Shown piece by piece: positions 23,095-45,462 of a stretch of DNA of 45,562 nt (position 1 is its first letter; every line of letters begins with the position of its first letter). Both the position numbers and the translations under genes were made by a program. The notes below the pieces were generated by a model. It searched no databases. It was given only the letters and a program-made list of their open reading frames with translations, and was not told the DNA's origin. The stretch lies in the IMG/VR virus record IMGVR_UViG_3300015184_000033; one strand, given 5' to 3'. The stretch is from a virus (taxonomy: Duplodnaviria; Heunggongvirae; Uroviricota; Caudoviricetes).

Positions 23095-23328
23095 GCCGTT
23101 TATCCGCTAAAATCCCCTCGCTTGTGCAAGCAAGTGGGCCTCGGTTTGTATCCACGGCACCCTGTGGGTATGAATGACTGTCGTCAGGTCGCAACTGACG
23201 GCGGTCGCCCACCTTCCAGTAATAAAAAAGCCACCAGCATTAACTCCACAGCGAGCTGGAGTTAATGAGGCAGCTTTGGTTTGCGCATTATCGCAGCCCC
23301 TGATAAGCACAAGAGCTGCTGTAATGCG

Positions 23329-23744: not shown

Positions 23745-23780
23745 CACCTGAAAATAAAAGCCCCGCGACACCGCGAGGCT
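23745..23780 (-). terminator. Putative intrinsic terminator/attenuator
   Basis: Minus-strand hairpin (cctcgcgg gtgt cgcgggg) followed by CTTTTATTTT, between small ORF and gene 23329-23739. Confidence 0.45.
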
Positions 23781-24601: not shown

Positions 24602-24675
24602 CCCATGTTCTCCTTTGTCTGGATGTAAAAAAGCCCCGGCAATTGCCGAGGCTTGTTGTTCGTTATCGTTACGGT

Positions 24676-24876: not shown

Positions 24877-25142
24877 TCATCATCTCCTGCCGCACATACA
24901 ACCTCACAAAAAACATCAGCGGAATGTTTCTTTTTGAATGAATGGCGCTCAAAACCGCACTCAATATCAGGCGCAAAAACATCCACCACATACGGTCTTT
25001 CAGAATGTTTGTTTTCCCAACGATAAACCGTAGTGACGTTGAAATGTTTTAACGCTTCACGGAACTCAACGCTGCCCGTCAGGTTTTTTGAGGTCAGGTA
25101 TTGCAGGAGTTTTTTTACTACTTCACGGTCTTGTACTTTCAT
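24873..25142 (-). CDS. Hypothetical protein, first gene after promoter/leader cassette copy 1
   Basis: 89-aa ORF; ATG preceded by conserved GGAGATAACCCG leader. Confidence 0.5.
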   Translation of the reverse strand: MKVQDREVVKKLLQYLTSKNLTGSVEFREALKHFNVTTVYRWENKHSERPYVVDVFAPDIECGFERHSFKKKHSADVFCEVVCAAGDDE

Positions 25143-25256
25143 CGGGTTATCTCCGGTTTAACCAGGGCGGGTATCGCTCGGTTTCGGGTATAACCATAGG
25201 AAATTTTTTCCCACCTGTAAAGCACTTTTTATATAAATATATAATTATATAATTCT
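25143..25256 (-). promoter_or_regulatory. Conserved promoter/leader cassette, copy 1
   Basis: About 105 bp almost identical to 32094-32200 and 41478-41587; candidate -35 TTTACA, 17-bp spacer, -10 TATGGT, conserved 5' leader and SD GGAGA. Confidence 0.55.
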
Positions 25257-25842: not shown

Positions 25843-26150
25843 GTTAGTTGTGTCTCCGGCGCTTATCTCCGGCAGTCATAACGCTGGCCAGCTCTACAGC
25901 AAACACAACGAAAAGGGCACTAACCAGACTGATTAATGCCCTTGCCTGTTGTGTGCCGGATATCGCCCGACAACGCTGTTTTGGTAACACGGCTACAGTT
26001 CCGTGCCGCTCCAGCTTTTACCCCTTTGCGGATAACAGGCCCTGCCTGTAACTTAGCCCCACGTTCGCCCGAAATGCGCACCAGGCACGCATAAAGATGA
26101 GCACGAAGGAAGTAACTCCACCGCGCTTATCTTTATGTGTGAGAGTGAAT

Positions 26151-26605: not shown

Positions 26606-26798
26606 TCCCCACCTCTTTTGTCACTTCTATACGCCGCTCCGCAGTGGCTTTTACGGCGGCTGCATTCTCATTAATGCGCTGCTTTTCAGCTTCATCTTCG
26701 GCCTTTTCTCGCCCCTTCATACGACCAAAACCAAACGCGCCAAATGCAACCAATATAATTGTGCCAATAAATGACAAAACGGCCTTCAAACCAGTCAT
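26520..26798 (-). CDS. i-spanin-like protein (Rz-like)
   Basis: 92-aa ORF with N-terminal transmembrane helix followed by charged coiled region; downstream of endolysin. Confidence 0.55.
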   Translation of the reverse strand: MTGLKAVLSFIGTIILVAFGAFGFGRMKGREKAEDEAEKQRINENAAAVKATAERRIEVTKEVGNVQQSVNHMADDDVDRELRESWKRPGGG

Positions 26799-27337
26799 AC
26801 CACCACTCGCTCTTTCATCCAGCCGTAGACAAACGACTCATTAGCCTCGCGCTTCTCCGCCAACTCCAGATAGCGTTCGCCCTGCGTACAGTTCAGCGAC
26901 GTCAGCATCACCCGTTCGCCGTCTTTTCCCCGATTCCCAAGATAAGCACGCAGCGCATTAATGGTACGTGGACCGATTCGTCCGTCTGCATCCAAATCGG
27001 GATACAGCTTCCCGCGCAGGTTGAACACATTCAGCCAGCGTTGAAGCATTTTTGACGCCACTGTTGGCCCCATGTTCACCCCCGTGTCACACAGCTCTGC
27101 GGCAATATCAGAGGATAATGCGGCCACCTGATCAAAGCGTGGTCCGTACCAGTAATCAGCCTCAAGGATTTCCAGTGCCTGTTCGCGGGTTAAATCGCGC
27201 ATATCGCCACGGTATCCATGAGCACGGGCAGTGTTCTGAGTAATGCCCCACTTTGTTGGGCCTCCCTTGTCGTCAGGGTGATCCACATAGCCGCCCTCTT
27301 TTCCAAGAACGCTGTTAAAAATCTCATCTTTGGTCAT
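26795..27337 (-). CDS. Endolysin, GH108 N-terminal domain with peptidoglycan-binding C-terminal domain
   Basis: 180-aa ORF with EGGYVDHPDDKGGPTKWGIT motif characteristic of GH108-type lysins. Confidence 0.7.
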   Translation of the reverse strand: MTKDEIFNSVLGKEGGYVDHPDDKGGPTKWGITQNTARAHGYRGDMRDLTREQALEILEADYWYGPRFDQVAALSSDIAAELCDTGVNMGPTVASKMLQRWLNVFNLRGKLYPDLDADGRIGPRTINALRAYLGNRGKDGERVMLTSLNCTQGERYLELAEKREANESFVYGWMKERVVV

Positions 27338-27656
27338 GATTAAACCCTAATGCGTCAACTATCCGCGCCAGATTGCCCCTGAAATACAGAACAACGATGC
27401 AGATAATCAGATTTCCAATAACCACCAGCCAGTGTGATTCTTGATAAAGACCGAACACATAACGGAAGGGAACATTGGCGTATACAATGACGTAGATATA
27501 AGCCAGAAAGGAAACAAATGGACGATGCCTGGAGTCTTTCCGTCGATAAAGCATCAGCGCCATTACTATTACTGTGCAAAGCACCGCATTAATCAGTGCT
27601 GACGGGTCACTGCTTACCATTTGAACCCCCTCCACGTAAGCGGGAAAGCATTCCAA
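27324..27656 (-). CDS. Membrane protein (holin/antiholin-like); start uncertain
   Basis: 110-aa ORF with three hydrophobic segments immediately upstream of endolysin; 50-nt overlap with preceding ORF suggests an internal start. Confidence 0.45.
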   Translation of the reverse strand: MECFPAYVEGVQMVSSDPSALINAVLCTVIVMALMLYRRKDSRHRPFVSFLAYIYVIVYANVPFRYVFGLYQESHWLVVIGNLIICIVVLYFRGNLARIVDALGFNHDQR

Positions 27657-28002
27657 AGATGCTACCGAGATCCTGGCTGTTTACGAACGTGAGGATTTTA
27701 ATGGTCAATGCAGCCACAATAACCGCACCAAGCGCATCCAGAGGACGATCGTTGTAGCTGGTCCATTTGGCAAGAAATGAGCCAACTAACGGCGCTCCAA
27801 TCACTCCAACAATGAACGATGTAAAGAAATAGCCAATCAGCTTGAGACGGCTAATATTCACCGCTGTAGCAACATAGAAAACAGCGCCAGCAAATGCCCC
27901 GAATACAACGCCGTAATCAATACCAGTTGCAATACCAAAAACGCTGGCACCCATCAGGCCACCAGCAGCAACGGCCGTACCGGAAATTGGTTCTGCTGAC
28001 AT
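27607..28002 (-). CDS. Holin-like membrane protein
   Basis: Start moved to internal ATG at 28002 (SD GAGGA upstream) because the first 16 codons of the tracked ORF overlap a terminator hairpin; multiple Gly/Ala-rich hydrophobic segments. Confidence 0.5.
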   Translation of the reverse strand: MSAEPISGTAVAAGGLMGASVFGIATGIDYGVVFGAFAGAVFYVATAVNISRLKLIGYFFTSFIVGVIGAPLVGSFLAKWTSYNDRPLDALGAVIVAALTIKILTFVNSQDLGSIFGMLSRLRGGGSNGKQ

Positions 28003-28015
28003 TGAAATCCTCGTT

Positions 28016-28048
28016 AAAAAAAAAGCCCCGCCGAAAAGGCAGGGCTTC
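28016..28048 (-). terminator. Intrinsic terminator immediately upstream of the lysis cassette (tR'-like position)
   Basis: Minus-strand hairpin AAGCCCTGCC-TTTTC-GGCGGGGCTT followed by a run of about 9 T. Confidence 0.55.
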
Positions 28049-28380
28049 ATAAAGCAACAAATTACGCGGTAATCGCTTAACGCAGTTTTACTACGTTAAA
28101 TGAAACACTACACCCAGTTACCACCTAAAACAAGGTTTTCCCATAAAAAAACCTTCATATCGTGGTTAATCGATCAATAAAAAAGCAATGTTCAACTTTT
28201 TACCAACCGAACATCCCGACCAGGACTTCCATAATATTCGCCGATATGCCACTGCTTAAGTTGAGTAATCTTCTCCAACTTAACTCCCATAGAGTCCAGT
28301 TTCTGCCATGTTTTCGGTTGTATGTGCTTCATTACCCGCTCTGAATATCTGAATAGTGCTCGTAAGCGCATGGTTTCTCA

Positions 28381-30666: not shown

Positions 30667-30965
30667 GCCACAGCCCCTCTCAACGGCTTAACTTTGGCTA
30701 ATAAGGTGTTAAACAACATGGAGTTAGGATTCATGCCAAATGGCAATTCCGGTTTAGCGGAGTAGTACAGGCAACCATTTATTTTCCTGGTTGTTATCTG
30801 TCCTTCGGCAACCATGCTTCTCAGTCTGCAACGCATAGAGTTCTGCGACACACCAATGTGCTCCGCGATTACGTCCACTTTTGAACATGGGTGATCGGTC
30901 AGGAAATTAATCACATCTTGGGGGTTAATAATTTTGCGTTTCATTGTCGAGGCGTCCTTATACAT
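30663..30965 (-). CDS. Winged-helix regulator, FaeA/PapI-like; true start may be Met8 (30944)
   Basis: Pattern KIINPQDVINFLTDHP...VDVIAEHIGVSQNSMRCRLRSMVAEGQI resembles FaeA-like wHTH proteins; annotated start overlaps the AT-rich motif. Confidence 0.45.
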   Translation of the reverse strand: MYKDASTMKRKIINPQDVINFLTDHPCSKVDVIAEHIGVSQNSMRCRLRSMVAEGQITTRKINGCLYYSAKPELPFGMNPNSMLFNTLLAKVKPLRGAVA

Positions 30966-31021
30966 TTATATAAATATATAATTCTATATACGGCGGGAGA
31001 CATCCCGCCGTAGGCTTACTG

Positions 31022-32089
31022 TCAGGCTTTCAATAGCGATTCTTTCAGATATCGGGCATCAGCCAGGGCGTTTGGAGTAATCTTGCGAACCCATGCATTA
31101 CGGGTTGGACTCCACTTAAAGGCGCGTGATTTAAGCAGCGAACGAATGTTTGCCTCTGGTTTGCCAGGGAAATAAAACAGGATGCGGTTATCCTCTGGAT
31201 CTATCTCCATAGAAAAGCCGTCGTATTCTTCGCACTGTGCTCCTGTTACAGACTTGACCGATTCAAGCTCCTTAATACGGCTCTGTAGTCGTTTGATTTC
31301 GGCCTTATTGTTGCTCAGTGCGTATGAAGGGAATCCGATGTGCCCACAGAAATCTCCGGACAGTAACTCTTTGGCTTCGCTTTCTGTAAACCTGAGATCG
31401 ATTAATGCAGAAAGCTGCTGTAATTGGTCTTTTTTGTATTTGCGAATGGCCTTATTTGCGGCCTTCATTTTGACGTGTGACTTCATGCAGCCTTGCAGCT
31501 TACGAAGCAACTTAAATAGCGCATCAGGATCATCAGACGAAATTCCATTACGACCAACACCTGCGGCTTTGCTCTCGTAGTGTGATGCTCTACTTTCGCA
31601 TTCAACAAACGCTTTTCTGAATAACGCATCAGCTTTAGACAAACGGCGGCGATGGCCTTTCGCGCTATAATGGTCAACTAAAATCGGCTGGCCTAACGGG
31701 ATCACATCCAACAGGTCATGCGCTCGCTTATGCGCTACCGCACCTTCTTTTCTGGCTTTTTCTGCACGAGCAATATATCGGGCAAGACGCGCGTTCTGGC
31801 GTTCCTGATAGGTGTTTACGTAATCATCTCCGCGCTGCTGCTGTTCAAGCCATGCTTTACGAAGATCTTCTGTTACGTCCACCAGCTCCGCAGGGATACA
31901 ACCAGTTTGGGCTTCATAAGAGTAACCATCCTCATAGATACGCCCATCGTCTTCAACAAAGAAAAAGGTTTCGTGCTCATCGCTTTTGACCATACGACCA
32001 TTAACATGGCGTAATAGGTAGCCAGTATCAGTGCTTAACAGGCTGTTAGGGTTGTTGATCCAGTCAGAAATAATTACTTGTTTATTCAT
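31022..32089 (-). CDS. DUF3560-like protein (function unknown), first gene after cassette copy 2
   Basis: 355-aa ORF; C-terminal LLKSRAFKWSPTRNAWVRK recalled as DUF3560-type; ATG preceded by conserved leader. Confidence 0.45.
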   Translation of the reverse strand: MNKQVIISDWINNPNSLLSTDTGYLLRHVNGRMVKSDEHETFFFVEDDGRIYEDGYSYEAQTGCIPAELVDVTEDLRKAWLEQQQRGDDYVNTYQERQNARLARYIARAEKARKEGAVAHKRAHDLLDVIPLGQPILVDHYSAKGHRRRLSKADALFRKAFVECESRASHYESKAAGVGRNGISSDDPDALFKLLRKLQGCMKSHVKMKAANKAIRKYKKDQLQQLSALIDLRFTESEAKELLSGDFCGHIGFPSYALSNNKAEIKRLQSRIKELESVKSVTGAQCEEYDGFSMEIDPEDNRILFYFPGKPEANIRSLLKSRAFKWSPTRNAWVRKITPNALADARYLKESLLKA

Positions 32090-32215
32090 CAGATTTCTCC
32101 GGTTTAACCAGGGCGGGTATCGCTCGGTTTCGGGTATAACCTTAGGAAATTTTTTCCCACCTGTAAAGCACTTTTTATATAAATCTATAATTATATATTT
32201 ATAGATTTTCGATGT
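32090..32215 (-). promoter_or_regulatory. Conserved promoter/leader cassette, copy 2
   Basis: Identical to copy 3 from tctccggtttaacc through ttatataaatctataattatata; candidate -35 TTTACA and -10 TAAGGT; immediately downstream of Q-like gene. Confidence 0.55.
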
Positions 32216-32258: not shown

Positions 32259-32636
32259 TTACTCTCTTCGCTTTTTCAAATAGTCGACAACATACGCCCT
32301 GGCTTTTGCCAGCTTCCGGCGATACTGTCTGAGACTAAGAGAAAGGGCGTGGGCTTTATCAATATGCGGTGCATTTATGTCGAGGCCCCGAATCTCCCAC
32401 GCCCCGTATTCAATTCGGACAACCAGCGCCGCAGTCTCATCAACTACCGTGAGGGCCGTCACCGCTCCCTCGATACTGGTTTCCAGTGAGTCATTTGGTG
32501 CGCCGCCCCCTCCGGTAAACTGGCAACGCGTAACCATCATCATTTCTAACATCGACGCGAAACCGCTACGGGCGTTGCAGCCATTGCGCACCCACAGCGC
32601 CCATAGCTCAAACAAGCTATCCAGATCGCGTCTCAC
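32259..32636 (-). CDS. Possible Q-like antiterminator (QuuD/Q21-like), tentative
   Basis: 125-aa ORF; N-terminal MRRDLDSLFELWALWVRNG resembles remembered QuuD start; position at end of nin-like block before a promoter cassette. Confidence 0.35.
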   Translation of the reverse strand: MRRDLDSLFELWALWVRNGCNARSGFASMLEMMMVTRCQFTGGGGAPNDSLETSIEGAVTALTVVDETAALVVRIEYGAWEIRGLDINAPHIDKAHALSLSLRQYRRKLAKARAYVVDYLKKRRE

Positions 32637-32639
32637 TGT

Positions 32640-32972
32640 TCAGATCTCCCGTATCGTGACGGGATAAAGCGCCTCTACCTGCTTTTTCTTCATGATGTAG
32701 ACGTCTGTTCGCACACCTTTAGTGTCGACACAATCAATCGTCCCATCGTCATAAAACACCATGAAATCAAGTTTATAAACGACACCACCAGGCAGATGAA
32801 AAGGCACCTGCATAAGAAACGTCACAACGCGGCCAGCTTTTCTCAGTAGCTTCAGTTCGCAGTAGTAATCAGCCTCTTTTTTGCTATCAAAAGCGATATC
32901 ATCGACAACAGTTTTTTTATTGCCGTATTTGCTTTTCCTGGTCGCTGGTTTGCGAAAGCCGGTATATCTCAT
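32640..32972 (-). CDS. DUF1064-like phage protein
   Basis: 110-aa ORF with KYGNKKTVVDDIAFDSKKEADYY motif typical of DUF1064. Confidence 0.55.
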   Translation of the reverse strand: MRYTGFRKPATRKSKYGNKKTVVDDIAFDSKKEADYYCELKLLRKAGRVVTFLMQVPFHLPGGVVYKLDFMVFYDDGTIDCVDTKGVRTDVYIMKKKQVEALYPVTIREI

Positions 32973-33373
32973 TTGGTATCCCCTGGTACTTCACCAAGAC
33001 TAAGATCAAACCCAATTTCGTCTTTAACTGACTGCGGCAACAGCTCCCACGTCTGCGCACACAAAAATTCATCGGTGCCATAACGCTCAACAAAGCGAGC
33101 ACAATTACTCAGGGGAGGGTGACGAACGGCAATATGCGGAGGCACGCGCCCACCACCAGGCACAACACCGCGATGATGTGGTGCGCACAACCCAAAGCTA
33201 TGGAAGTGGCAATTCTCATCAACGCTGCCGTAATCAGGATCGTGATGTAGCTCCGTCCACAGCTCTGGATTCTCAATTTCACGGCCATCAATAATGCAAG
33301 CTATGCAACCCACGTGAGTGAGCACCGCTTGTATATAAAGTTTCTCTTTCTTCGTTGGTGTACGTCCGTTCAT
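32969..33373 (-). CDS. Cys/His-rich protein (possible zinc-binding nuclease-like)
   Basis: 134-aa ORF with CIACI, HHDPDYG, CHFHSFGLCAPHH clusters. Confidence 0.4.
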   Translation of the reverse strand: MNGRTPTKKEKLYIQAVLTHVGCIACIIDGREIENPELWTELHHDPDYGSVDENCHFHSFGLCAPHHRGVVPGGGRVPPHIAVRHPPLSNCARFVERYGTDEFLCAQTWELLPQSVKDEIGFDLSLGEVPGDTK

Positions 33374-33606
33374 CAGCGCCCCTTACCATTGATAAAGAGG
33401 TTGAACTCGTTGATTAACTGGACATACATGCTTCTGGCCGCGTAGTTCTTTGCCAGCTCTTTACGGGATGAGATCCCGCAAAACTCACGCAGAATCACAG
33501 AGGCCTCAGAACTGTTTGAAACGTTCTTCCCTGTTTTACTGGTCAGAAAGCGCCAGAATTGGGGATTCTGGCAATGCATCGCAGCACCGCGAACATAACT
33601 ACTCAT
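33373..33606 (-). CDS. Hypothetical protein
   Basis: 77-aa ORF, start overlaps stop of upstream gene. Confidence 0.35.
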   Translation of the reverse strand: MSSYVRGAAMHCQNPQFWRFLTSKTGKNVSNSSEASVILREFCGISSRKELAKNYAARSMYVQLINEFNLFINGKGR

Positions 33607-34118
33607 TGATGGCCCCCGTCATTTCTGGTGCTTTTCACCGTGCGGCTTCTTAAAAACCTGCCATCACGAACAACAGACACTTCTCGTTTACCCAACCTCA
33701 TTTCACGGCGGTAACATTCAGAAAATGCCTCGTCCGGCATCATATAAATGCGACGCTTCGCCTCCGTATCCAGAAGGGAACGGCTTGGGGTTACATATAA
33801 AAACGACTCATCAATAGGGACAAAACCACGAGCAAGAATTACTGGCAGAATGCCAGGAAGAACGCAGAAAACAGCTCCACGATGCAGCAACATCTGGTAC
33901 TCCATGACCTCCGTTATCCCCGTGACTACTGTTACGGTGTCACGTCTGTTACGGCTGGCAACCAGTCGCTGCACACGTCCAATTTTCTGATCTACAGATA
34001 GATGTTTGCTATCGTTATCAATATGATCGATAACAAATCCTTTAATCGTTTGATCAAGGTAGTGCACCACCTTCGATTGAATCTGGTGATTATCACCAAA
34101 GAAGGCCAGAATCATCAT
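33603..34118 (-). CDS. Hypothetical protein (nin-like region)
   Basis: 171-aa ORF translationally coupled to the Cro-like gene. Confidence 0.45.
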   Translation of the reverse strand: MMILAFFGDNHQIQSKVVHYLDQTIKGFVIDHIDNDSKHLSVDQKIGRVQRLVASRNRRDTVTVVTGITEVMEYQMLLHRGAVFCVLPGILPVILARGFVPIDESFLYVTPSRSLLDTEAKRRIYMMPDEAFSECYRREMRLGKREVSVVRDGRFLRSRTVKSTRNDGGHQ

Positions 34119-34609
34119 TCCTCAAGCCTCCCAAGTGCTGAACGCCGGGCGTTGCTAATCTCCTTATGAATCAGCTCGATATCGCTGGAATCTTTATTCT
34201 TAAGCTCCAGCACGGTAATCGCATCACGAACCTCTGAAACGGTTACGTGTGAGTGTTTCCAGCGAGCAATGAATCGCGGACCGCGTAGATTGCAACGCTC
34301 CGCAGGCATCCCCAGCTCAGAGAAAACCGCTTTCAGCCTTGATAAGCAGTTAACAGGGAGATTCCCTTTGATCTTGTTCTGCCGAACCGATGTGCCATCG
34401 CTACGCTGGCGCTGACGTTCGGCAAAATCTGCCGCCCATTGCTGGACGTTAATCCGGCCTTCCGAATACGCCACCAGCAGCGTCAGGTTATCCGCACGAG
34501 GGAATCTCTCGAAGCGATACCAGGCACCAATCAGTGATGACGTAAAGCCAAACTTTCTGGCAACACCAATTTGGCCTCCATTTTCGTCAACCCACTCCTG
34601 AAAGGTCAT
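34115..34609 (-). CDS. Cro/YdaS-like HTH regulator, divergent from cI-like gene
   Basis: 164-aa ORF; N-terminal GGQIGVARKFGFTSSLIGAWYR resembles YdaS/Cro-type HTH. Confidence 0.5.
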   Translation of the reverse strand: MTFQEWVDENGGQIGVARKFGFTSSLIGAWYRFERFPRADNLTLLVAYSEGRINVQQWAADFAERQRQRSDGTSVRQNKIKGNLPVNCLSRLKAVFSELGMPAERCNLRGPRFIARWKHSHVTVSEVRDAITVLELKNKDSSDIELIHKEISNARRSALGRLEE

Positions 34610-34628
34610 TTAACGAACTCCAGTTAAA

Positions 34629-34746
34629 ACCACGATATGTGGTATTAAAACCACATATCGTGAGTTTTTCAATGGGCGAAACAAAAAATAACCTTCTATT
34701 TGTGGTCCACCTCTCGTCTTACCATGTGAAAACCACTAAATGTGGT
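34629..34746. promoter_or_regulatory. Operator cluster between divergent Cro-like and cI-like genes (ACCAC-N5-GTGGT sites)
   Basis: ACCACGATATGTGGT at 34629-34643, ACCACATATCGTGAG at 34650-34664, ACCACTAAATGTGGT at 34732-34746, plus GTGGTCCAC at about 34702. Confidence 0.6.
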
Positions 34747-34783
34747 AATGTATAAAGAACCCACCATTCACGATTGATGAGAC

Positions 34784-35440
34784 ATGAAAAGCAACGACGA
34801 GAACATCAAGAAAGAAATAGGTCTGCGCATTCAGACTCTACGGAAACAATCCGGCATGACTGCCGGAGATCTCCAGCAAGTCACTGGAATAGGCTTAAGC
34901 ACCTTGCAGAACTATGAGGCCGGATTAAGACAACCATCTATACCTGCCATCAAGAAAATCGCGCACGCCCTGAAAGCATCAGCGCCTTATATCGCGTGCT
35001 TAACAGATAACCCGTTCCCACCCCAGAATACTAACGCTCCTGTTATTCCTGGGCTTGTAGCTATAAAAAATGACATAGCATCGCACGCCGGAGAAAAGCC
35101 AGTGCTGGCGATAGAACAGGAGATTCTACGAAGCAAGAACATCAACCCATCGTCTCTGTCAGTTCTCCAGAGCAACGATGAGTTAATGTCACCAACAATA
35201 TCCCCTGGCTCCCAAGTCCTGATTAATACAGACGATACAGAGATTCATGAGGGGATCTATGCCCTTGAAGACAGAAATGGCCTGGTTGTTTTGAGGCACT
35301 GTAGAGTCATACCGGGTGACAATGCTGTTATGCTGTCAACCGAAAGGGATGCTGAAATGAACACTAAGCATCTGAATAACGAGGAATTTAAGCGTTATAA
35401 AGTTCTTGGCCGCGTAGTTAGTGTTGTCAACTGGTTATGA
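34784..35440 (+). CDS. cI-like repressor (HTH_XRE plus LexA-type S24 autopeptidase domain)
   Basis: 218-aa ORF; N-terminal HTH (LRKQSGMTAGDLQQVTGIGLSTLQNYEAG), C-terminal domain with MSPTISPG serine motif and a downstream Lys. Confidence 0.8.
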   Translation: MKSNDENIKKEIGLRIQTLRKQSGMTAGDLQQVTGIGLSTLQNYEAGLRQPSIPAIKKIAHALKASAPYIACLTDNPFPPQNTNAPVIPGLVAIKNDIASHAGEKPVLAIEQEILRSKNINPSSLSVLQSNDELMSPTISPGSQVLINTDDTEIHEGIYALEDRNGLVVLRHCRVIPGDNAVMLSTERDAEMNTKHLNNEEFKRYKVLGRVVSVVNWL

Positions 35441-35911: not shown

Positions 35912-35931
35912 AAGCGGGCTAACGCCCGCTT
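35912..35931 (+). terminator. Putative terminator hairpin
   Basis: AAGCGGGC-TAAC-GCCCGCTT followed by A/T-rich tract. Confidence 0.45.
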
Positions 35932-36036
35932 ATATGATTATAGATTTATATAATTATATAAAACGCTTTTCATCCGCCAAAAAGTTGGTTATGCTTACCT
36001 CGTTCTATAAATATAGATTTATAGAATTATATAACC
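35929..36036. repeat. Two copies of the AT-rich ATAGATTTATATAA-type motif upstream of parF (candidate centromere/operator)
   Basis: gattatagatttatataattatataaaa (35929-35966) and ctataaatatagatttatagaattatataa (36003-36036); third copy at 36709-36743. Confidence 0.5.
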
Positions 36037-36057
36037 AAACACATGGAGTCTCGACAA

Positions 36058-36711
36058 ATGACTATCTCTGTAGGTATTTTCAACGGAAAAGGCGGCGTAA
36101 CCAAATCAACAATTGCCCGTGCTTTAGCAGTTGCTTATGCAAAGGCCGGCTGGAATGTATGCCTGATCGATATGGATGTGCTTAACGGAACGGTAACGCG
36201 TTGGGTACAACGCAGAATGGCCAACAATATCGAACCAGCAATCGCGGCACAGCCGTGCGGCACACCATCACAAGTCCAGAAAATCATCGAATCAGAAGTA
36301 TACGACCTGGTTATCGTAGATGGCGGTGCCTACGCATCTGAATCAGTACCGAAGCTCTCTGAATTTCTGGATATGGTTATTTTGCCAACCAGATTCTCTA
36401 CCGATGACCTGGAAACCACCGTTAACACAGCTCACGGCATCGTTAAAAAGGGTGTACCAATCAAGAAAATTTGCATGGTGTTTTCCGGCGCGGCTGAAAA
36501 CGAAGCTGACTATATTGAAGCCCAAGAGTACCTGGCTAATACGCCATACTTTGTTGTCGATAAGTACATTCCCCACAAGCCAGCTCTGAGCAAAGCTCAG
36601 GATAAGGGCTTAAGCCTCATTGAGTGCTCATACGTTGCGCCACGCAAAAAGGCAGACGACGTTATTCAGGGGATTATCAACCAGCTTGAGGCTCTGACTA
36701 CTGCCGCGTAA
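36058..36711 (+). CDS. ParA/ParF-type partition ATPase
   Basis: Deviant Walker A GKGGVTKST near N-terminus; start placed at ATG 36058 with GGAG 9 nt upstream; about 217 aa as for small type-Ib ParA. Confidence 0.85.
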   Translation: MTISVGIFNGKGGVTKSTIARALAVAYAKAGWNVCLIDMDVLNGTVTRWVQRRMANNIEPAIAAQPCGTPSQVQKIIESEVYDLVIVDGGAYASESVPKLSEFLDMVILPTRFSTDDLETTVNTAHGIVKKGVPIKKICMVFSGAAENEADYIEAQEYLANTPYFVVDKYIPHKPALSKAQDKGLSLIECSYVAPRKKADDVIQGIINQLEALTTAA

Positions 36712-36754
36712 TATATAATTATAGTTTTATAGATTTATATAAGAGGGGATACAC

Positions 36755-37003
36755 ATGGCCGCACCATCAAAACCACCAAAGAAGAACAGCAAAGGCGTAC
36801 CGCCATCGATCGAACAACCGCAAGTTTTCGACCCGACTGAAACGCCAGCCAGAACCAAATCAGGTGGGGCACAAATGGCGTTTAACGTCGACCCTGAATT
36901 TAAACGCGAGTACAAAACGTTCGCCAGCTCAATGGATATGTCATTGAAAGAAGTGCTGACAAAATCTTTTGAGTTACTCAAGGCTCAATACAACCAGAAG
37001 TAA
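36755..37003 (+). CDS. ParG-like ribbon-helix-helix partition/centromere-binding protein
   Basis: 82-aa ORF directly after ParA; C-terminus AFNVDPEFKREYKTFASSMDMSLKEVLTKSFELLK parallels remembered ParG RHH region. Confidence 0.6.
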   Translation: MAAPSKPPKKNSKGVPPSIEQPQVFDPTETPARTKSGGAQMAFNVDPEFKREYKTFASSMDMSLKEVLTKSFELLKAQYNQK

Positions 37004-37215: not shown

Positions 37216-37230
37216 ATTCAACCATAAAAA

Positions 37231-37248
37231 AGGCCCCCGAAGGGGCCT
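37231..37248 (-). terminator. Intrinsic terminator hairpin
   Basis: AGGCCCC-CGAA-GGGGCCT; on the minus strand followed by TTTTTATGG. Confidence 0.55.
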
Positions 37249-37253
37249 AATCG

Positions 37254-37376
37254 CTACTTGCTGCTAATGTTTATCGTCACATTCAGAGCGTTATCAGTAA
37301 TCTTCCAACCCTCCCCATGTGGCGTAAACAAAGCTCCAGTAACAACGATAAAAATACACATACAGTATTTTTTCAT
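37254..37376 (-). CDS. Small hydrophobic peptide (40 aa), candidate type-I toxin
   Basis: MKKYCMCIFIVVTGALFTPHGEGW...; SD-like AAGGG 5 nt upstream of ATG 37376; terminator immediately downstream. Confidence 0.35.
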   Translation of the reverse strand: MKKYCMCIFIVVTGALFTPHGEGWKITDNALNVTINISSK

Positions 37377-37440
37377 TGTGTGGCCCTTACAGGCCGTTTC
37401 ACGGCATCCCCACCGACGAAAATGACGCGAGAGCAAGCAC

Positions 37441-37460
37441 GCTGTTTGTGCCTGCGTGGT
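37441..37460. repeat. 20-bp direct repeat, copy 1 (GCTGTTTGTGCCTGCGTGGT)
   Basis: Matches 37691-37710 at 19 of 20 positions; lies 65 nt upstream of the small peptide ATG. Confidence 0.85.
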
Positions 37461-37690
37461 ACGGCAAGTGGATAATCCTTTCCTGAAAGTCAGTGCCCGG
37501 GTGCGAATCGGCGGAAAGGCCCCAAGCCATATTACACGTCATACCCTTCATAATGAAGGAATAAAAAACGCTTTTATTACATAAGATTACACGTAAATAA
37601 GTTAAAAACCTTCATTTTGCATGAGCTAATGAGCTAAATTTTTTTATATGAATAGTGGACTATTCACCTCAGTTGGGTAAGAATGTAGTT

Positions 37691-38500: not shown

Positions 38501-38612
38501 TTAGTCTGTTAAAATCCGCCGTATTGACATGAATGCGCCATTGGTGGACACTTTCCGAGCCGTAGCAAAATCTACGGTCGGGATTGGAACCCCGATAATC
38601 ATCATGGCGCAT

Positions 38613-38635
38613 ACCGCGTTAGCGGTTTTTTTATG
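38613..38635 (+). terminator. Attenuator-like hairpin with T-run in the antirepressor leader
   Basis: ACCGC-GTTA-GCGGT followed by TTTTTTTAT; outer arms GCGCATA/TATGCG allow an alternative pairing. Confidence 0.4.
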
Positions 38636-38797
38636 CGTAAAGCACTGCTACACCCAAATTATGGTGGGGCGTGCGGGGGAGTCGTTAGACTCGCCGGATT
38701 CCATGGTGACCGGTAGTTCCAACCCTGTACGTCTCACCACCCAATGATTGGAACCAGACGGTGGTGAGTATCCTTAACCTTTAAGGGAACTATCACC

Positions 38798-38989
38798 ATG
38801 ACAAACTTACCCCATGACTATTACGTCAACCTCGTAAAGATCCTTCTCAAGAAAGCCTCATACGCCGATAAATTACGCCTGGCTGAAATCATCGAGCGCG
38901 AAGCTATGCGCATCGCCAGCAACGATAACGCTGTTTCTGACGCAAAAATCTCCCTCGTAACCAAAGTAGTTATGGGAGGTGCAAAATGA
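38798..38989 (+). CDS. Small protein preceding antirepressor (Icd-like position)
   Basis: 63-aa ORF with SD AAGGGAA; stop overlaps the antirepressor ATG (ATGA). Confidence 0.45.
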   Translation: MTNLPHDYYVNLVKILLKKASYADKLRLAEIIEREAMRIASNDNAVSDAKISLVTKVVMGGAK

Positions 38990-40155
38990 AAACGCTTCCG
39001 ACCGTTAACACCCTACAGCCTATCCTGCATAACCAGATCCCCGTTATCACTACTGAACTTTTGGCGCAGTTTTACGGCACCGAGATCAACAATATCAAAG
39101 TCAATTACACCCGTAATGCTGAAAGGTTTGTTGAGGGAAAACACTTTTTCAAAGTTGGTGGCGATGCCCTGAAAAATTTGCGGGTTACTTTAAGTAACTC
39201 ACAAAATTTGCAACCATCTTTAAGAGGGTTACAAATTTCCCCGAAAGCCCGCTCCCTCATTCTCTGGACAGAACGCGGGGCTGCACGTCACGCTAAAATG
39301 CTCGAAACCGATCAGGCGTGGGATGTATTCGAACGGCTGGAAGACTGCTATTTCAACCAGAACGCGCAAACGGCCGCGACCGTAACCGTCTCGCCAAACA
39401 ATGCTCGTGAGGTTGTCGATACGCTCAACGCCAAACCGATGTTTTACATTAAGGTGTGCAATAACGAGCCACTCACAACCTCAGCCGATGTTGCCCAGGC
39501 ATTCAGCACCACAAACAATTCCATCGTTATGGCCATCGATGCGTTACGCATTCCTCGCACAGCTGCGGCGCGTCATTTCTTTAAAGAGCAACGACCGTTG
39601 GAAGGAAGCGACCGCGAAATAACAATCTATCGCATGACAAAAGACGGATTTACCTTGCTCATGGAAAGTATCGACGGTCCAGGCGTGAAGGATATCAAGC
39701 TGGCCTACATTGAAGCCTTTAACGCTATCAGCAGCGTGTTAAAAACACAGTACGAGCGCGATCTGGCTAAACGACTGTACCAGGAAAAAACGATTATCCG
39801 CGCGGCAACAGAGCATAATCGGCTATTAACGGAACCGAACTACAGGAAGGAACTAATCAAGGAGTTTGACAAGGCAACAGGGAAAACCAAAGCGGCGCTA
39901 AATCTGCCAGCAATGACTCAGGAAAATGTGATATCAGCCTTACTTCTTGATCTGCTCAGAAACGCCAGAGCACTGATCAGCTTTGACGAAAACCTGAATC
40001 CTCAGCTCAAGCTACTACCACCGACAGGCAAAGTAGTCGACCAGGCAGATCACAACAGCATACTCAGCGTACTGGATGCAAACCTGCCAGCCAGGACACT
40101 ACAGGAGCTGATAAAAACATGTGCTGATAAGCTCGCACAGAAAAGCAGACCATAA
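38986..40155 (+). CDS. Antirepressor (AntA-like N-terminal domain)
   Basis: 389-aa ORF; N-terminus HNQIPVITTELLAQFYGTEINNIKVNYTRNAERFVEGKHFFKV matches the phage antirepressor N-terminal signature. Confidence 0.8.
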   Translation: MKTLPTVNTLQPILHNQIPVITTELLAQFYGTEINNIKVNYTRNAERFVEGKHFFKVGGDALKNLRVTLSNSQNLQPSLRGLQISPKARSLILWTERGAARHAKMLETDQAWDVFERLEDCYFNQNAQTAATVTVSPNNAREVVDTLNAKPMFYIKVCNNEPLTTSADVAQAFSTTNNSIVMAIDALRIPRTAAARHFFKEQRPLEGSDREITIYRMTKDGFTLLMESIDGPGVKDIKLAYIEAFNAISSVLKTQYERDLAKRLYQEKTIIRAATEHNRLLTEPNYRKELIKEFDKATGKTKAALNLPAMTQENVISALLLDLLRNARALISFDENLNPQLKLLPPTGKVVDQADHNSILSVLDANLPARTLQELIKTCADKLAQKSRP

Positions 40156-41096: not shown

Positions 41097-41477
41097 TTAC
41101 TTAACGAGGAATAAAAATGGTTTATTGTTCGGCGGTGTAATCGGGGCTGGCTCGCTTTTGCTCATGCGATCAGTGTACCAGGCCAACTCCTTGTCAAAGT
41201 AAGCCTGATTAAAATAGGCCATGAATGTAGTTTCAAATCCATAACGACCGCTAATACGCAGCATCTGATTGCCGTTCTCTGTTTCCAGATATACCTGGGC
41301 ACGTTCCTGATTCTCCTTCAGCCAGGTTAAAGCCTCATCGCATGAGGACACACGATACTCATCATCGTAGCAGTCATCGATGCGGCTTGAGGAAGAACGG
41401 CAAATCACGCCAACAGAACCAGCCAGGATAGTTTGAATTTTAAGGAAAGCGTTTTTGCGGATTTTAATCATGCTCAT
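41097..41477 (-). CDS. Hypothetical protein, first gene after cassette copy 3
   Basis: 126-aa ORF; ATG preceded by conserved GGAGATAACCCG leader. Confidence 0.5.
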   Translation of the reverse strand: MSMIKIRKNAFLKIQTILAGSVGVICRSSSSRIDDCYDDEYRVSSCDEALTWLKENQERAQVYLETENGNQMLRISGRYGFETTFMAYFNQAYFDKELAWYTDRMSKSEPAPITPPNNKPFLFLVK

Positions 41478-41590
41478 CGGGTTATCTCCGGTTTAACCAG
41501 GGCGGGTATCGCTCGGTTTCGGGTATAACCTTAGGAAATTTTTTCCCACCTGTAAAGCACTTTTTATATAAATCTATAATTATATAAGCA
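41478..41590 (-). promoter_or_regulatory. Conserved promoter/leader cassette, copy 3
   Basis: Near-identical to copies at 25143-25256 and 32090-32215. Confidence 0.55.
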
Positions 41591-43743: not shown

Positions 43744-44592
43744 TTAATGTTGGAGTGATTTCCAGGTCTTTCTTAACCTGTTATAACGCTGCTCAACGAG
43801 GGATCGTAAATATGCAAGGTCAGCTCCAGGATACATGCCATCAGCAAATTCCTGGCTAACCTCTCTAGTGATTTGATGACGAAGTTCGGCCTCTCCCTTT
43901 TCCCGAACAAGACGCGCAGCTCTCTCCGCTGCTTTCTGTTTTGCCTTTATCTCTCTGGCCGTCTTCCTCTGACGCCATACATTCTCCATCTGCTCCTGAA
44001 TAACAATACGCTTATAATCAGCCTCCGTTATCGCTTTTTTAAGCCGTTCGCTATTCTTCGCATTGAAGTAATTAAGTTTCTGGCTAACCGCACGTCTCCA
44101 TGCTTGTTCAGTAATACCAACGGTTTCCAGCAGTTGATCACGAATCTCTATTTTCGCTGGCCAATACTGTTTATTCACCCGATCCCAGCGACGTTCATAA
44201 TCAATAAAACCTAACTCTTTCAGTTGCGACAACGCCCTTGTACAGCGCGTTATAGACTTGTTCCCAGCTTCGGATACGGTAGACAGGCCGCAAAAATCAG
44301 CCAACGCCTCAGCACTGGCCAGAACCCGCTTAGAAATGATGTTTACATGGTGCAAAATCGCAGCAATCACAGCATTAATTGCCCGACGACGATGCTCGTT
44401 TATCCGGCGTTTCCGCTCTGACGGTTGATTAACGTAGAACGCAACCTCACACGTAAGATCACGACCATTAATGCGCTGTAAAGCATCAGATAACACCAGC
44501 GGCAGCTTGTGCGTATGGTGCTTTGGAGGCTGGAACTCCGGCGACAAATTACAAACGTAAGCTGAACGTAGAGACGGCATTGGTCTATCCAT
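43744..44592 (-). CDS. repA: Replication initiator RepA (IncFII RepA1 family)
   Basis: Block SITRCTRALSQLKELGFIDYE aligns with remembered R100 RepA1 SITRATRALTFLSELGLITYQ; start set at ATG 44592 because the tracked ORF starts at GTG 44736 and its first codons overlap an antisense-strand terminator hairpin. Confidence 0.75.
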   Translation of the reverse strand: MDRPMPSLRSAYVCNLSPEFQPPKHHTHKLPLVLSDALQRINGRDLTCEVAFYVNQPSERKRRINEHRRRAINAVIAAILHHVNIISKRVLASAEALADFCGLSTVSEAGNKSITRCTRALSQLKELGFIDYERRWDRVNKQYWPAKIEIRDQLLETVGITEQAWRRAVSQKLNYFNAKNSERLKKAITEADYKRIVIQEQMENVWRQRKTAREIKAKQKAAERAARLVREKGEAELRHQITREVSQEFADGMYPGADLAYLRSLVEQRYNRLRKTWKSLQH

Positions 44593-44690
44593 ATGTTCGC
44601 TCTTGCGTCCACGGAAAACCAACGTATAATGGGAGTTGTCGAGGCGCCCATGGTTAGTTGTTGGTTTTCCTTTCCGTGGATGTCGCAAGA

Positions 44691-44722
44691 AGCCCGCAGA
44701 TTTATCTGCGGGCTTTTTGTTT
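44691..44722 (+). terminator. Hairpin plus T-run antisense to the repA leader (candidate CopA-like antisense RNA terminator)
   Basis: GCCCGCAGA-TTTA-TCTGCGGGC followed by TTTTTGTTT on the plus strand. Confidence 0.45.
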
Positions 44723-44762
44723 CCATATCTGGTCACTTTTCAACCAGACACCCACAATCATA

Positions 44763-44907: not shown

Positions 44908-45462
44908 TCAATGATTCCCAGCCGGAAACCTGCGGTAAAGCGTGGATAAGGTAACATCGAAGATAATCGCTATCCGCTTACGTGAAACACCATTCGCAAT
45001 AAGCCTTCCGATCTGTTCCCATTGCTCTGGTGCCAATTTTGAGCGGCGTCCTCCTATCCTGCCGTTAGCCCTTGCCACCGCCAATCCTGCACGCGTTCTT
45101 TCAATCATATTTTCCCGCTCCATCTCTGCGACTGCACTCAGCATCGTGTAGGCAAAGCGGCCAATTGAAGTGCTAATTTTTATCCCTTCCGTAATCGAAA
45201 TAAACTCAATGTTGTTTGATAAAAAATGGTTAAGTAAATCAACAAGATGAATCAGAGAACGCCCCATTCGGTCCAGCTTCCAGACAATAACCGTATCGCC
45301 CGGCCGTAACACCTTCAGTAGCTTATCAAGTCCTGGTCGTTTTGATTTAGCACCGGATATTTTATCTTCAAAAATCCGGTCACATCCTGAACTCCTGAGC
45401 GCCTCCAGTTGTAATTCCAAATTCTGGTCAAAAGTTGACACCCTCGCATAACCATATTGCAT
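44908..45462 (-). CDS. Serine recombinase, DNA invertase of the Hin/Gin/Cin/Pin family
   Basis: 184-aa ORF; MQYGYARVSTFDQNLELQ...GDTVIVWKLDRMGRS...RIAIIFDVTLSTLYRRFPAGNH parallels remembered Hin sequence including catalytic Ser region and C-terminal HTH. Confidence 0.9.
   Translation of the reverse strand: MQYGYARVSTFDQNLELQLEALRSSGCDRIFEDKISGAKSKRPGLDKLLKVLRPGDTVIVWKLDRMGRSLIHLVDLLNHFLSNNIEFISITEGIKISTSIGRFAYTMLSAVAEMERENMIERTRAGLAVARANGRIGGRRSKLAPEQWEQIGRLIANGVSRKRIAIIFDVTLSTLYRRFPAGNH

What the first reader, a model, noticed from the sequence alone, without database searches (positions are those of the whole stretch)
32259..34609. Rightward early region has a Q-like gene but no replication genes
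Between the Cro-like gene and the Q-like ORF are only four small genes (171 aa, 77 aa, a Cys/His-rich 134 aa, and a DUF1064-like 110 aa). There is no O/P-like initiator/loader, helicase or primase. The Q-like call itself is tentative, resting on N-terminal resemblance to QuuD-type proteins and its position before a promoter cassette.
Basis: inference. Interest (0 to 1): 0.45.

Follow-up and report, generated by a model that had tools for sequence, protein, structure and literature searches.

The report
Phage-plasmid early operon with distant Q
The window is a ~48-kb phage that lives as a plasmid, so its early operon lacks replication genes because a plasmid-type RepA/ParA module elsewhere does that job, and the small "Q-like" gene is a real but very distant relative of the phage 21 Q antiterminator.

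Summary
On the minus strand, a Cro-like gene (34609-34115) is followed by genes of 171 aa and 77 aa, a Ref-type nuclease (134 aa), a DUF1064 protein (110 aa) and a 125-aa ORF (32636-32259). None matches an initiator, loader, helicase or primase.

This is not an anomaly. The window is a phage-plasmid, 99% identical to Yersinia phages vB_YpM_39/41/44 and about 98% to hundreds of ~48-kb circular E. coli plasmids. It carries an IncFII-type RepA (43744-44736), ParA, a small ParG-like protein and a resolvase.

A profile of its family does find Q21 in the PDB (E 3.6e-5). hhalign against the Q21 family gives 95% probability over helix 1, the "torus" segment and helices 3-4. The AlphaFold model is an N-terminal helix, a conserved flexible segment and a sigma-region-4 domain, which is the Q21 plan.

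Five co-directional intrinsic terminators stand before the lysis and packaging genes. The most likely role is a compact Q21-type late antiterminator. This is inferred, and its loading site is unidentified.

The "promoter cassette" after the gene is one of seven arrays of 8-bp repeats, probably bound by the partition protein.

The parts
34784..35440 (+). CI-type repressor (HTH plus a weak S24 peptidase match), divergent from the early operon
   Evidence: PF01381 E 4.5e-11 and PF00717 E 0.0018. PHROG 4 transcriptional repressor, E 1e-26.
34610..34783 (.). Divergent control region. It holds CCAC-N5-GTGG palindromes (34630-34663, about 34740). Read by eye, a PR-like TTGAAA-17-TTTAAT overlaps them.
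   Evidence: Inverted repeat 34631-34662. Sequence read. The promoter assignment is inference.
34115..34609 (-). First early gene, 164 aa. The N-terminal ~70 aa are Cro-like; the C-terminal domain is unknown.
   Evidence: PHROG 7452, and a weak PHROG 35 repressor match over residues 1-53. A 74-aa homologue sits in the same position in L031. Syntenic in all relatives examined.
33603..34118 (-). 171-aa protein of unknown function, conserved with the module
   Evidence: PHROG 7047, unknown function. No Pfam, NCBIfam or PDB hit even as a profile. Syntenic.
33373..33606 (-). 77-aa protein of unknown function
   Evidence: PHROG 5358. Syntenic.
32969..33373 (-). Ref-family RecA-dependent (HNH-like) nuclease, 134 aa
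   Evidence: PF16786 E 1.6e-11. The RefSeq name on the ATCC 25922 plasmid is 'Ref family recombination enhancement nuclease'.
32640..32972 (-). DUF1064 protein, 110 aa. Its PHROG label is Holliday junction resolvase. It sits where NinG/Rap sits before Q in phage 21.
   Evidence: PF06356 E 6.8e-19. PHROG 190 E 9e-38. Phage 21 gene order.
32259..32636 (-). 125-aa distant Q21-type protein: helix 1, a conserved flexible 'torus-like' segment, then a sigma-region-4 domain with a canonical HTH. It is the last conserved gene of the early operon.
32085..32198 (-). Copy A of a 114-nt promoter-plus-leader cassette, upstream of the DUF3560 gene. It overlaps the 8-bp repeat array 32172-32209.
   Evidence: Repeat family D2. 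Alignment of the three copies. Conserved in L011 and L012. The leader is not a stable RNA fold, z -0.62.
25139..25252 (-). Copy B of the cassette, upstream of an 89-aa ORF (24873-25142) and two terminators
41474..41587 (-). Copy C of the cassette, directly after terminator 41618-41596 and upstream of a 126-aa ORF
28060..28180 (-). Conserved non-coding block before the lysis genes. It is a candidate PR'-like leader or sRNA with GcvB-like architecture. It contains the direct repeat ATTGATCG-ATTAACCA (28178-28163).
   Evidence: The core is identical in L011 and L012 although the flanking genes diverge. RF00022 scores 34.6 bits, below the gathering score of 42, E 2.7e-6.
28022..28048 (-). Strong intrinsic terminator t1, about 20 nt before the first holin gene
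   Evidence: -17.6 kcal/mol. The L020/L066 lineage has an equivalent terminator directly before its holin.
25913..25943 (-). Co-directional terminator t2, after tRNA-Met and before the methyltransferase gene
24631..24654 (-). Co-directional terminator t3
23759..23780 (-). Co-directional terminator t4
23225..23265 (-). Co-directional terminator-like hairpin t5, before the ParB-like, terminase and structural genes
   Evidence: -18.6 kcal/mol. Sequence.
26795..28002 (-). Lysis cassette: two holin-family genes and a GH108 endolysin. An Rz-like spanin follows at 26520-26798.
   Evidence: RefSeq names on the ATCC 25922 plasmid. PHROG 1026 spanin.
43744..44736 (-). Plasmid replication initiator RepA (IncFII family). 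This is the replication gene that the early operon lacks.
   Evidence: PF02387 E 7e-44. NF040977 232 bits against a cutoff of 70. Annotated repA on homologous plasmids.
36043..36711 (+). ParA partition ATPase, flanked by 8-bp repeat arrays (35927-36037 and 36708-36743)
   Evidence: PF01656 and related families. Arrays.
36755..37003 (+). 82-aa protein that I read as a ParG-like (ribbon-helix-helix) partition partner, by analogy. It is the likely reader of the 8-bp repeats.
   Evidence: Position after parA. Its putative beta-strand segment varies by lineage in step with the repeat unit. No HMM hit. The function is inference.
44908..45462 (-). Serine recombinase / resolvase
   Evidence: PF00239 E 2.6e-44.

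Best explanation
The window is a temperate myovirus that is maintained as a circular plasmid (a phage-plasmid).

**Early operon.** Its cro-side early operon (34609 to 32259, minus strand) carries no replication module. Replication and segregation are supplied by a separate plasmid-type module: an IncFII-family RepA at 43744-44736, ParA plus a small ParG-like protein at 36043-37003, and a resolvase. The operon instead holds a Cro-like regulator, two conserved unknowns, two recombination nucleases (Ref-type and DUF1064) that are analogous to the lambdoid nin region, and, as its last conserved gene, a 125-aa protein.

**The 125-aa protein.** It is a distant, compact relative of the phage 21 Q antiterminator. 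It has helix 1, then a highly conserved but flexible segment equivalent to the Q21 'torus', then a sigma-region-4 domain.

**Proposed mechanism (inferred, not shown).**
- Once made from the early promoter, the protein docks on RNA polymerase through its sigma-R4-like domain.
- It places the flexible segment in the RNA-exit channel.
- This makes transcription resistant to the series of co-directional intrinsic terminators: 28048-28022 before the holins, then 25943, 24654, 23780 and about 23230. These separate the early and accessory genes from the lysis, packaging and structural genes.

The loading site is not identified. Two candidates are the conserved block at 28180-28060 in front of the pre-holin terminator and the 114-nt promoter/leader cassettes.
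For: **Phage-plasmid identity.**
- 99% identity to Yersinia phages vB_YpM_39/41/44 over 7 kb.
- About 98% identity to ~48-kb circular E. coli plasmids, including the ATCC 25922 plasmid annotated with repA and ParA.
- RepA scores above the NCBIfam cutoff, with PF02387 at E 7e-44.

**No replication function in the operon.**

**Synteny.** The block cI | cro - 171 aa - 77 aa - Ref - (DUF1064) - Q-like, with parA beside it, is syntenic in viral contigs whose proteins have diverged to 30-60% identity. Genes after the Q-like gene vary. A more distant phage has cI | cro - 143 aa - Q-like.

**Homology to Q21.**
- The family profile finds Q21 chains 6jnx/6p18 at E 3.6e-5; the next hit is at E 0.3.
- hhalign against a Q21-family alignment gives 95.2% probability and E 2.6e-8. 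Residues 2-78 align to Q21 residues 12-89.
- All 27 Q21-family proteins are hit at 23-35 bits.
- 10 of 110 family members weakly match PF06530.

**Structure.**
- The AF2 model has pLDDT 86.6. Helices 51-124 are above 90 and residues 21-50 are at 55-66.
- That low-confidence stretch holds most of the invariant residues.
- Foldseek's top hits are Q21 chains.
- Q21 itself is a sigma-R4-like fold whose H1-H2-H3 segment refolds into the torus on RNA polymerase (bioRxiv 10.1101/651190).

**Need for antitermination.** Five strong co-directional terminators lie between the early region and the terminase gene. None lies within the structural operon down to about 5600. The terminator directly before the holin is also present in a lineage whose holins are only about 28% identical.

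**Precedent.** BrrG of the Bartonella gene transfer agent was recognised only by structural similarity to Q21. It is a processive antiterminator that acts at a promoter far from its own gene (bioRxiv 10.1101/2024.11.20.624540).
Against: - The protein itself has no hit to any Q Pfam family at E<=1. It has no PDB hit by single-sequence search.
- The detectable homology covers only the N-terminal about 78 residues.
- The C-terminal HTH is a canonical sigma-R4 motif. It lacks the helix-turn-[loop]-helix of Q21, and the Q21 C-terminal tail that contacts RNA polymerase is absent.
- Unlike lambda, 21 and 82, no promoter / pause-element / terminator unit directly follows the gene. The first strong terminator is 4.2 kb downstream.
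- The promoter-like cassette after the gene is not specific to it (three copies). In L011 and L012 an extra gene lies between it and the Q-like gene.
- No Q-binding element conserved across lineages was found, although the HTH is conserved.
- Some terminators may simply be the ends of inserted accessory units (morons). The fold-based terminator scan also found minus-strand hairpins in the related contigs.
- No functional data exist.
Confidence: 0.55

Rival explanations
1. The 125-aa protein is a stand-alone sigma-region-4-type DNA-binding transcription factor. It would activate or repress late or accessory promoters by acting at initiation, and would not be a processive antiterminator.
For: - Some family members match Sigma70_r4_2 or ECF sigma profiles.
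- The HTH is canonical.
- No promoter-terminator unit directly follows the gene.
Against: - The sequence homology to Q21 lies in helix 1, the torus segment and H3-H4, not in the HTH.
- The most conserved part of the family is the flexible N-terminal segment, which has no role in a plain HTH regulator.
- Q21 is itself a sigma-R4-like fold, so sigma-R4 hits do not discriminate between the two readings.
- A stack of co-directional terminators precedes the late genes.
Confidence: 0.25
2. The early operon does contain the lytic replication function, hidden in the conserved unknown proteins (171 aa, 77 aa, or the C-terminal domain of the 164-aa Cro-like protein). RepA would serve only plasmid maintenance, as in P1, which has separate plasmid and lytic replicons.
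For: - These three proteins are conserved in synteny across diverged relatives.
- They occupy the position of O/P in lambdoid phages.
- None has an assigned function.
Against: - No similarity to any initiator, loader, helicase, primase or polymerase, even with a family profile.
- The proteins are small.
- A complete RepA gene above the curated cutoff is present.
- No second origin-like repeat set was seen in the operon.
Confidence: 0.12
3. The ORF is a degenerate remnant or an unrelated small helical protein, and the Q21 similarity is a chance match of helical, low-complexity profiles.
For: - The single-sequence searches are negative.
- The Foldseek E-values are weak, at 0.3-0.9.
Against: - The family has 130 cluster representatives at E<=1e-3, full-length and of uniform size.
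- It is strongly conserved, with 26 invariant columns among 24 sequences.
- Its genomic position is fixed.
- Three independent methods put Q21 first: HMM against the PDB, hhalign and Foldseek.
Confidence: 0.05

Closest known systems
Q antiterminator of phage 21 (Pfam PF06530; PDB 6P18, 6P19, 6JNX)
   Same: - Remote but significant profile homology over helix 1, the torus segment and H3-H4.
- Sigma-R4-like core.
- It is the last gene of the delayed-early operon, preceded by recombination nucleases. This parallels NinB...NinG/Rap before Q in phage 21.
- Terminators lie ahead of the lysis genes.
   Different: - 125 aa against 162 aa.
- No PF06530 hit for the protein itself.
- Canonical HTH instead of helix-turn-[loop]-helix, and no C-terminal tail.
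- No pR'-QBE-pause-terminator unit directly after the gene. In phage 21 pR' starts 7 bp after the Q stop codon. Here the first strong terminator is 4.2 kb away.
- The binding element is unknown.
BrrG of the Bartonella gene transfer agent (and GafZ/GafA of alphaproteobacterial GTAs)
   Same: - Q21-like proteins that are not recognisable by ordinary sequence annotation.
- BrrG is a processive antiterminator acting at a promoter that is not adjacent to its gene.
- It is a useful precedent for how such a distant Q21 relative can work.
   Different: - Different sequence family and host clade.
- No comparison with BrrG was run here.
- BrrG has experimental support; this protein has none.
PA0613 family (NCBIfam NF051483). 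PA0613 lies next to the R/F-pyocin lysis genes of Pseudomonas aeruginosa.
   Same: - Weak full-length match: 21 bits, residues 1-123 against profile positions 1-117 of 119.
- 57 of 110 family members match, best E 6.7e-9.
- One review lists PA0612-PA0613 as regulatory genes adjacent to the pyocin lytic genes (PMC11871291).
   Different: - The score is far below the curated cutoff (100 bits), so this is a sister family, not membership.
- I found no described function for PA0613 in the held literature.
Phage-plasmids with plasmid-type replicons (P1, N15, SSU5 groups)
   Same: - A temperate phage maintained extrachromosomally, with rep and par genes placed outside the lytic early operon.
- A P1-type immI element is present: isrK and C4 antisense RNA upstream of an antirepressor.
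   Different: - About 48 kb, with an IncFII-family RepA and a small ParA with a ParG-like partner.
- A lambda-like cI/cro switch.
- No DNA similarity to P1 beyond short patches.
- I could not place it in a named phage-plasmid group. The pSLy3 group, which I checked, belongs to the SSU5 supercommunity.

Membership tests
Q21-type antiterminators (Pfam PF06530 Phage_antitermQ) | Protein matches the PF06530 HMM at or above its gathering score | tested here: not met
   No PF06530 match even at E<=1. Only 10 of 110 family members match weakly, best E 1e-4.
Q21-type antiterminators (Pfam PF06530 Phage_antitermQ) | Homology to Q21 detectable by profile methods over helix 1, the torus segment and H3-H4 | tested here: met
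   Profile against the PDB: Q21 at E 3.6e-5. hhalign: 95.2% probability, E 2.6e-8, residues 2-78 against Q21 12-89. All 27 Q21-family proteins hit at 23-35 bits.
Q21-type antiterminators (Pfam PF06530 Phage_antitermQ) | Sigma-R4-like fold preceded by a mobile segment that forms the RNA-exit-channel torus | tested here: inconclusive
Q21-type antiterminators (Pfam PF06530 Phage_antitermQ) | Helix-turn-[loop]-helix DNA-binding motif and a C-terminal tail contacting RNA polymerase | tested here: not met
   The model has a canonical HTH (helices 91-97 and 102-124) and ends at residue 125.
Q21-type antiterminators (Pfam PF06530 Phage_antitermQ) | Late promoter with a Q-binding element, a sigma-dependent pause element and a terminator directly downstream of the gene | tested here: not met
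   A promoter-like site lies 40 bp downstream, but there is no terminator before 28048. The cassette is repeated elsewhere and in L011/L012 an extra gene separates it from the Q-like gene. A candidate unit lies 4 kb away at 28180-28022.
Q21-type antiterminators (Pfam PF06530 Phage_antitermQ) | Processive antitermination activity | not testable with these tools
   Needs reporter or in vitro transcription assays.
Q-lambda (PF03589) and Q82 (PF06323) families | HMM match | tested here: not met
   No match at E<=1. Neither family appears among the matches of the 110 family members.
Lambdoid O/P-type replication module | Initiator plus helicase loader (or helicase/primase) between cro and the nin/Q region | tested here: not met
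   No such domains in the six ORFs.
Phage-plasmid with an IncFII-family replicon | RepA above the curated family cutoff | tested here: met
   NF040977 RepA_IncFII_LM 232 bits against a cutoff of 70. PF02387 150.7 bits against 22.9.
Phage-plasmid with an IncFII-family replicon | The same element is found both as a circular plasmid and as an isolated phage genome | tested here: met
   97-98% identity to ~48-kb circular plasmids. 99% identity to three Yersinia phage genomes. Terminase, tail and lysis genes are present.
PA0613 family (NCBIfam NF051483) | Score at or above the curated cutoff of 100 bits | tested here: not met
   21.3 bits. Best family member E 6.7e-9.

The most novel reading that the evidence does not exclude
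The 125-aa protein, its about 130 cluster-level relatives and the PA0613 family would together form an unrecognised clade of compact, sigma-R4-derived Q21-like antiterminators. These would switch on lysis and particle genes in phage-plasmids and tailocin loci. They would load at sites distant from their own genes. In this element, the promoter cassettes involved would also be gated by the plasmid partition protein, whose 8-bp repeat arrays sit at seven promoter regions. That would couple plasmid maintenance to lytic gene control.
Probability: 0.2. Interest if true: 0.6.

Novelty: new variant of a known kind. Interest (0 to 1): 0.35.

Why it matters
**Annotation.** The gene is named 'hypothetical protein' on the homologous ATCC 25922 plasmid, one of hundreds of related E. 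coli plasmids, and PHROG 5285 is labelled 'unknown function'. A supported link to Q21 gives a testable role for the late switch of a common phage-plasmid. One copy is carried by the widely used reference strain ATCC 25922.

**Biology.** It would extend the Q21 mechanism to a shorter protein with a plain sigma-R4 HTH and a target that is not adjacent to the gene. It also points to PA0613 of the pyocin locus as a possible relative.

**The replication puzzle.** The 'missing replication genes' are not a puzzle. This is the normal layout of a phage that replicates as a plasmid.

Tried and rejected
- **Direct tests of the 125-aa protein.** Pfam found no Q family. A single-sequence PDB search found nothing.
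- **ACATCG direct repeats (32227-32207) as a Q-binding element.** Rejected. They are absent in L011 and L012, whose Q-like proteins are about 90% identical.
- **Tandem TATAAT-like hexamers after the gene as promoter plus sigma-dependent pause element.** Not upheld. They belong to 8-bp-periodic arrays found at seven sites, including both sides of parA. The repeat unit changes with lineage, while the Q-like HTH does not.
- **The 114-nt leader as a structured RNA (put-like).** No stable fold, z -0.62. No Rfam match.
- **A sigma-70 promoter in the conserved block 28180-28060.** No convincing -35/-10 by scan or by eye.
- **The Q21-QBE-like direct repeat ATTGATCG-ATTAACCA.** It matches 11 of 16 positions, and 13 of 16 in L012. 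It is post hoc, is expected by chance genome-wide at 11/16, and was not found in other lineages.
- **The 171-aa protein as a hidden replication protein.** No hits.
- **The PHROG 'primase' label on the DUF3560 protein.** No primase family appears in Pfam for it, only DUF3560.
- **Context of distant homologues.** The broad alignment A2 was too diverse for locus retrieval. P0106 gave no loci. The downstream genes in L020, L022 and L031 were uninformative accessory genes or integrases.
- **Literature.** Nothing relevant on vB_YpM_41, CP009073 or a function for PA0613.
Full report
**What is there.** On the minus strand the window carries a compact operon that diverges from a CI-type repressor gene (34784-35440, +). 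Its genes are:
- a 164-aa protein with a Cro-like N-terminus (34609-34115);
- proteins of 171 aa and 77 aa;
- a 134-aa Cys/His-rich protein that is a Ref-type RecA-dependent nuclease (PF16786, E 1.6e-11);
- a 110-aa DUF1064 protein (PF06356, E 6.8e-19);
- a 125-aa ORF (32636-32259).

None of these proteins matches an initiator, helicase loader, helicase or primase in Pfam, PHROGs or NCBIfam. The 171-aa protein is the largest unknown. It gave nothing even as an 11-sequence profile against the PDB and Pfam.

**Why there are no replication genes.** The window is a phage-plasmid.
- A 7-kb stretch around the finding is 99% identical to three Yersinia pestis phages, vB_YpM_39/41/44, of about 49 kb.
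- The right 17.5 kb is 97-98% identical to hundreds of ~48-kb circular E. coli plasmids. One is the plasmid of strain ATCC 25922, whose annotation includes 'plasmid replication initiator RepA' and 'ParA family protein'.
- In the window, RepA is at 43744-44736(-). It scores PF02387 at E 7e-44 and NF040977 at 232 bits against a cutoff of 70.
- ParA is at 36043-36711(+), followed by a small 82-aa protein. A resolvase is at 44908-45462(-).

So the replication function lies in a plasmid-type module outside the lytic early operon. That is the usual arrangement for phages maintained as plasmids. The rest of the window is a normal late region: two holins, a GH108 lysin and a spanin; then a methyltransferase and ParB-like proteins; then the large terminase at 16801-18657 and the structural genes. 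All are on the minus strand.

**The early block is conserved.** In viral contigs whose proteins have diverged to 30-65% identity, the same order recurs: parA, cI, then cro, 171 aa, 77 aa, Ref, (DUF1064) and the Q-like gene. The genes after the Q-like gene differ from lineage to lineage. A still more distant phage has cI | cro (74 aa) - 143 aa - Q-like. The Q-like gene is therefore the last conserved gene of the early operon. It follows two recombination nucleases, much as Q follows NinB...NinG/Rap in phage 21.

- No match to PF06530, PF06323 or PF03589 appears at E<=1.
- PHROG 5285 is 'unknown function'.
- The single-sequence PDB search is empty.

The family is real and sizeable: 31 close clusters, and 130 cluster representatives at E<=1e-3 with a profile. 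At family level the link to Q21 is consistent across methods.
- A 110-sequence profile finds the Q21 chains 6jnx and 6p18 at E 3.6e-5; the next hit is at E 0.3.
- hhalign against a 27-sequence Q21-family alignment gives 95.2% probability and E 2.6e-8. Residues 2-78 align to Q21 residues 12-89.
- The family HMM hits all 27 Q21-family proteins at 23-35 bits.
- 10 of 110 members weakly match PF06530.

Q21 is described as a sigma-R4-like fold. Its H1-H2 linker, H2 and H2-H3 linker move by 19-40 Å on binding RNA polymerase and form a torus in the RNA-exit channel (bioRxiv 10.1101/651190). In the present family the equivalent stretch is the most conserved part of the sequence (GFASMLEMMMVTRCQF.GGGG) and also the least confidently modelled. 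That pattern is what one expects of a segment that folds on a partner; this is my inference.

The differences from Q21 are clear:
- 125 aa against 162 aa;
- a plain HTH in place of the helix-turn-[loop]-helix;
- no C-terminal tail.

**Where would it act?** Using a fold-based scan, I found strong co-directional intrinsic terminators at five positions:
- 28048-28022, about 20 nt before the first holin;
- 25943-25913;
- 24654-24631;
- 23780-23759;
- about 23265-23225.

No terminator of that strength follows until the end of the structural operon near 5600. In a lineage whose holins are only about 28% identical, a strong terminator also sits directly before the holin gene. Late transcription coming from upstream must pass these signals. 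This is the situation that Q-type factors solve. Some of the terminators probably end inserted accessory units (morons), but late transcription would still have to read through them.

I could not identify the loading site. The promoter-like site 40 bp after the gene (TGAACA-17-TATAAT) belongs to a 114-nt promoter/leader cassette present three times: 32085-32198, 25139-25252 and 41474-41587. In L011 and L012 an extra gene separates the cassette from the Q-like gene. A second candidate is the non-coding block 28180-28060 upstream of the pre-holin terminator. Its core is identical in L011 and L012 although the neighbouring genes have diverged. I found no convincing sigma-70 promoter in it.

**The 'promoter cassette'.** The TATA-rich sequence after the Q-like gene is one of seven intergenic arrays of 8-bp-periodic TA(T/G)A repeats. 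There are 38 overlapping matches against 0.15 expected. Two arrays lie upstream of parA and a third lies between parA and the 82-aa ORF. In diverged relatives the repeat unit differs by lineage, but arrays sit upstream of parA and also downstream of the Q-like gene: directly after it in most lineages, and about 130-400 bp away in L018 and L020. The putative DNA-reading strand of the small ParG-like protein varies in step with the repeat unit. The Q-like HTH is nearly invariant. I therefore attribute these arrays to the partition protein, not to the Q-like protein. They may let that protein repress several promoters, as KorB or omega do on other plasmids. This is my inference, by analogy with those plasmid regulators.

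**Comparison and verdict.** The protein works most probably like Q21 but is not a member of PF06530 by the curated test. I file it as a distant, compact variant of the Q21 kind.
- A precedent is BrrG of the Bartonella gene transfer agent. It was recognised only by structural similarity to Q21 and shown to be a processive antiterminator acting at a distant promoter.
- A weak full-length match to the NCBIfam PA0613 family (57 of 110 members match) suggests a sister family next to the pyocin lysis genes. I found no published function for PA0613.
- The main rival is a plain sigma-R4-type transcription factor.

The 'missing replication genes' are explained and ordinary. The antiterminator function is inferred, with no experiment behind it.

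Noticed in passing
window 25226-25257, 26362-26399, 30955-30992, 32172-32209, 35927-36037, 36708-36743, 41561-41590: Seven intergenic arrays of 8-bp-periodic TA(T/G)A repeats: 38 overlapping matches against 0.15 expected. Two arrays lie upstream of parA and a third lies between parA and the 82-aa ORF; the others sit at promoter regions of other operons. In diverged relatives the unit sequence changes by lineage, together with the small ParG-like protein. This suggests that the partition protein also acts as a global repressor.
   Followed up: partly
window 32085-32198, 25139-25252, 41474-41587 (minus strand): Three copies (90-98% identical) of a 114-nt promoter-plus-leader cassette that runs up to the start codons of three unrelated genes. 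Multiple copies (2-3) were also found per contig in related contigs. The leader has no stable RNA fold and no Rfam match.
   Followed up: partly
window 28017-28173 (minus strand): Conserved non-coding unit ending in the pre-holin terminator. It aligns full-length to the GcvB sRNA model: stem-loop, a G/U-rich linker GGUGUAGUGUUUCA, a second stem-loop and the terminator. The score is 34.6 bits, below the gathering score of 42 (E 2.7e-6). It may be a phage-plasmid sRNA, or the terminated leader of a late promoter.
   Followed up: partly
window 38559-38744 (+) and 38986-40155 (+): isrK and C4 antisense RNA (both above Rfam gathering scores) lie directly upstream of an ORF6N/Rha antirepressor gene. 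This is a P1/P7-type immI immunity module, present in addition to the cI/cro switch.
   Followed up: no
window 37226-37524 (minus strand): ryfA RNA at 131 bits (gathering score 80), with its own terminator at 37248-37231. From memory, it may be a type I toxin-antitoxin or addiction element.
   Followed up: no
window 26151-26226 (minus strand): tRNA-Met (CAT) between the lysis genes and terminator 25943-25913. The 99-aa ORF 26053-26352 that overlaps it is probably spurious.
   Followed up: no
window 34630-34663 and about 34740: Three CCAC-N5-GTGG palindromes in the cI/cro intergenic region. Two of them bracket a PR-like TTGAAA-17-TTTAAT. An exact copy of the half-site CCACGATATG also lies in the pre-holin block at 28165-28156.
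   Followed up: partly
window 31022-32089 (minus strand): 355-aa DUF3560 protein whose C-terminal half matches a PHROG labelled 'primase' (phrog_19458, E 2e-36). No primase domain is found in Pfam, so the label looks unreliable.
   Followed up: partly
L066 1900-2120 (contig IMGVR_UViG_640753048_000002): In a diverged relative, the 250-nt region before the holin contains, in order: two copies of the palindrome GTGACGCGTCAC, the sequence TTTAACCACACTATAT, a small hairpin with a T-run, and a strong terminator. This layout parallels the window's pre-holin block, which has TTAACCACGATATG.
   Followed up: partly
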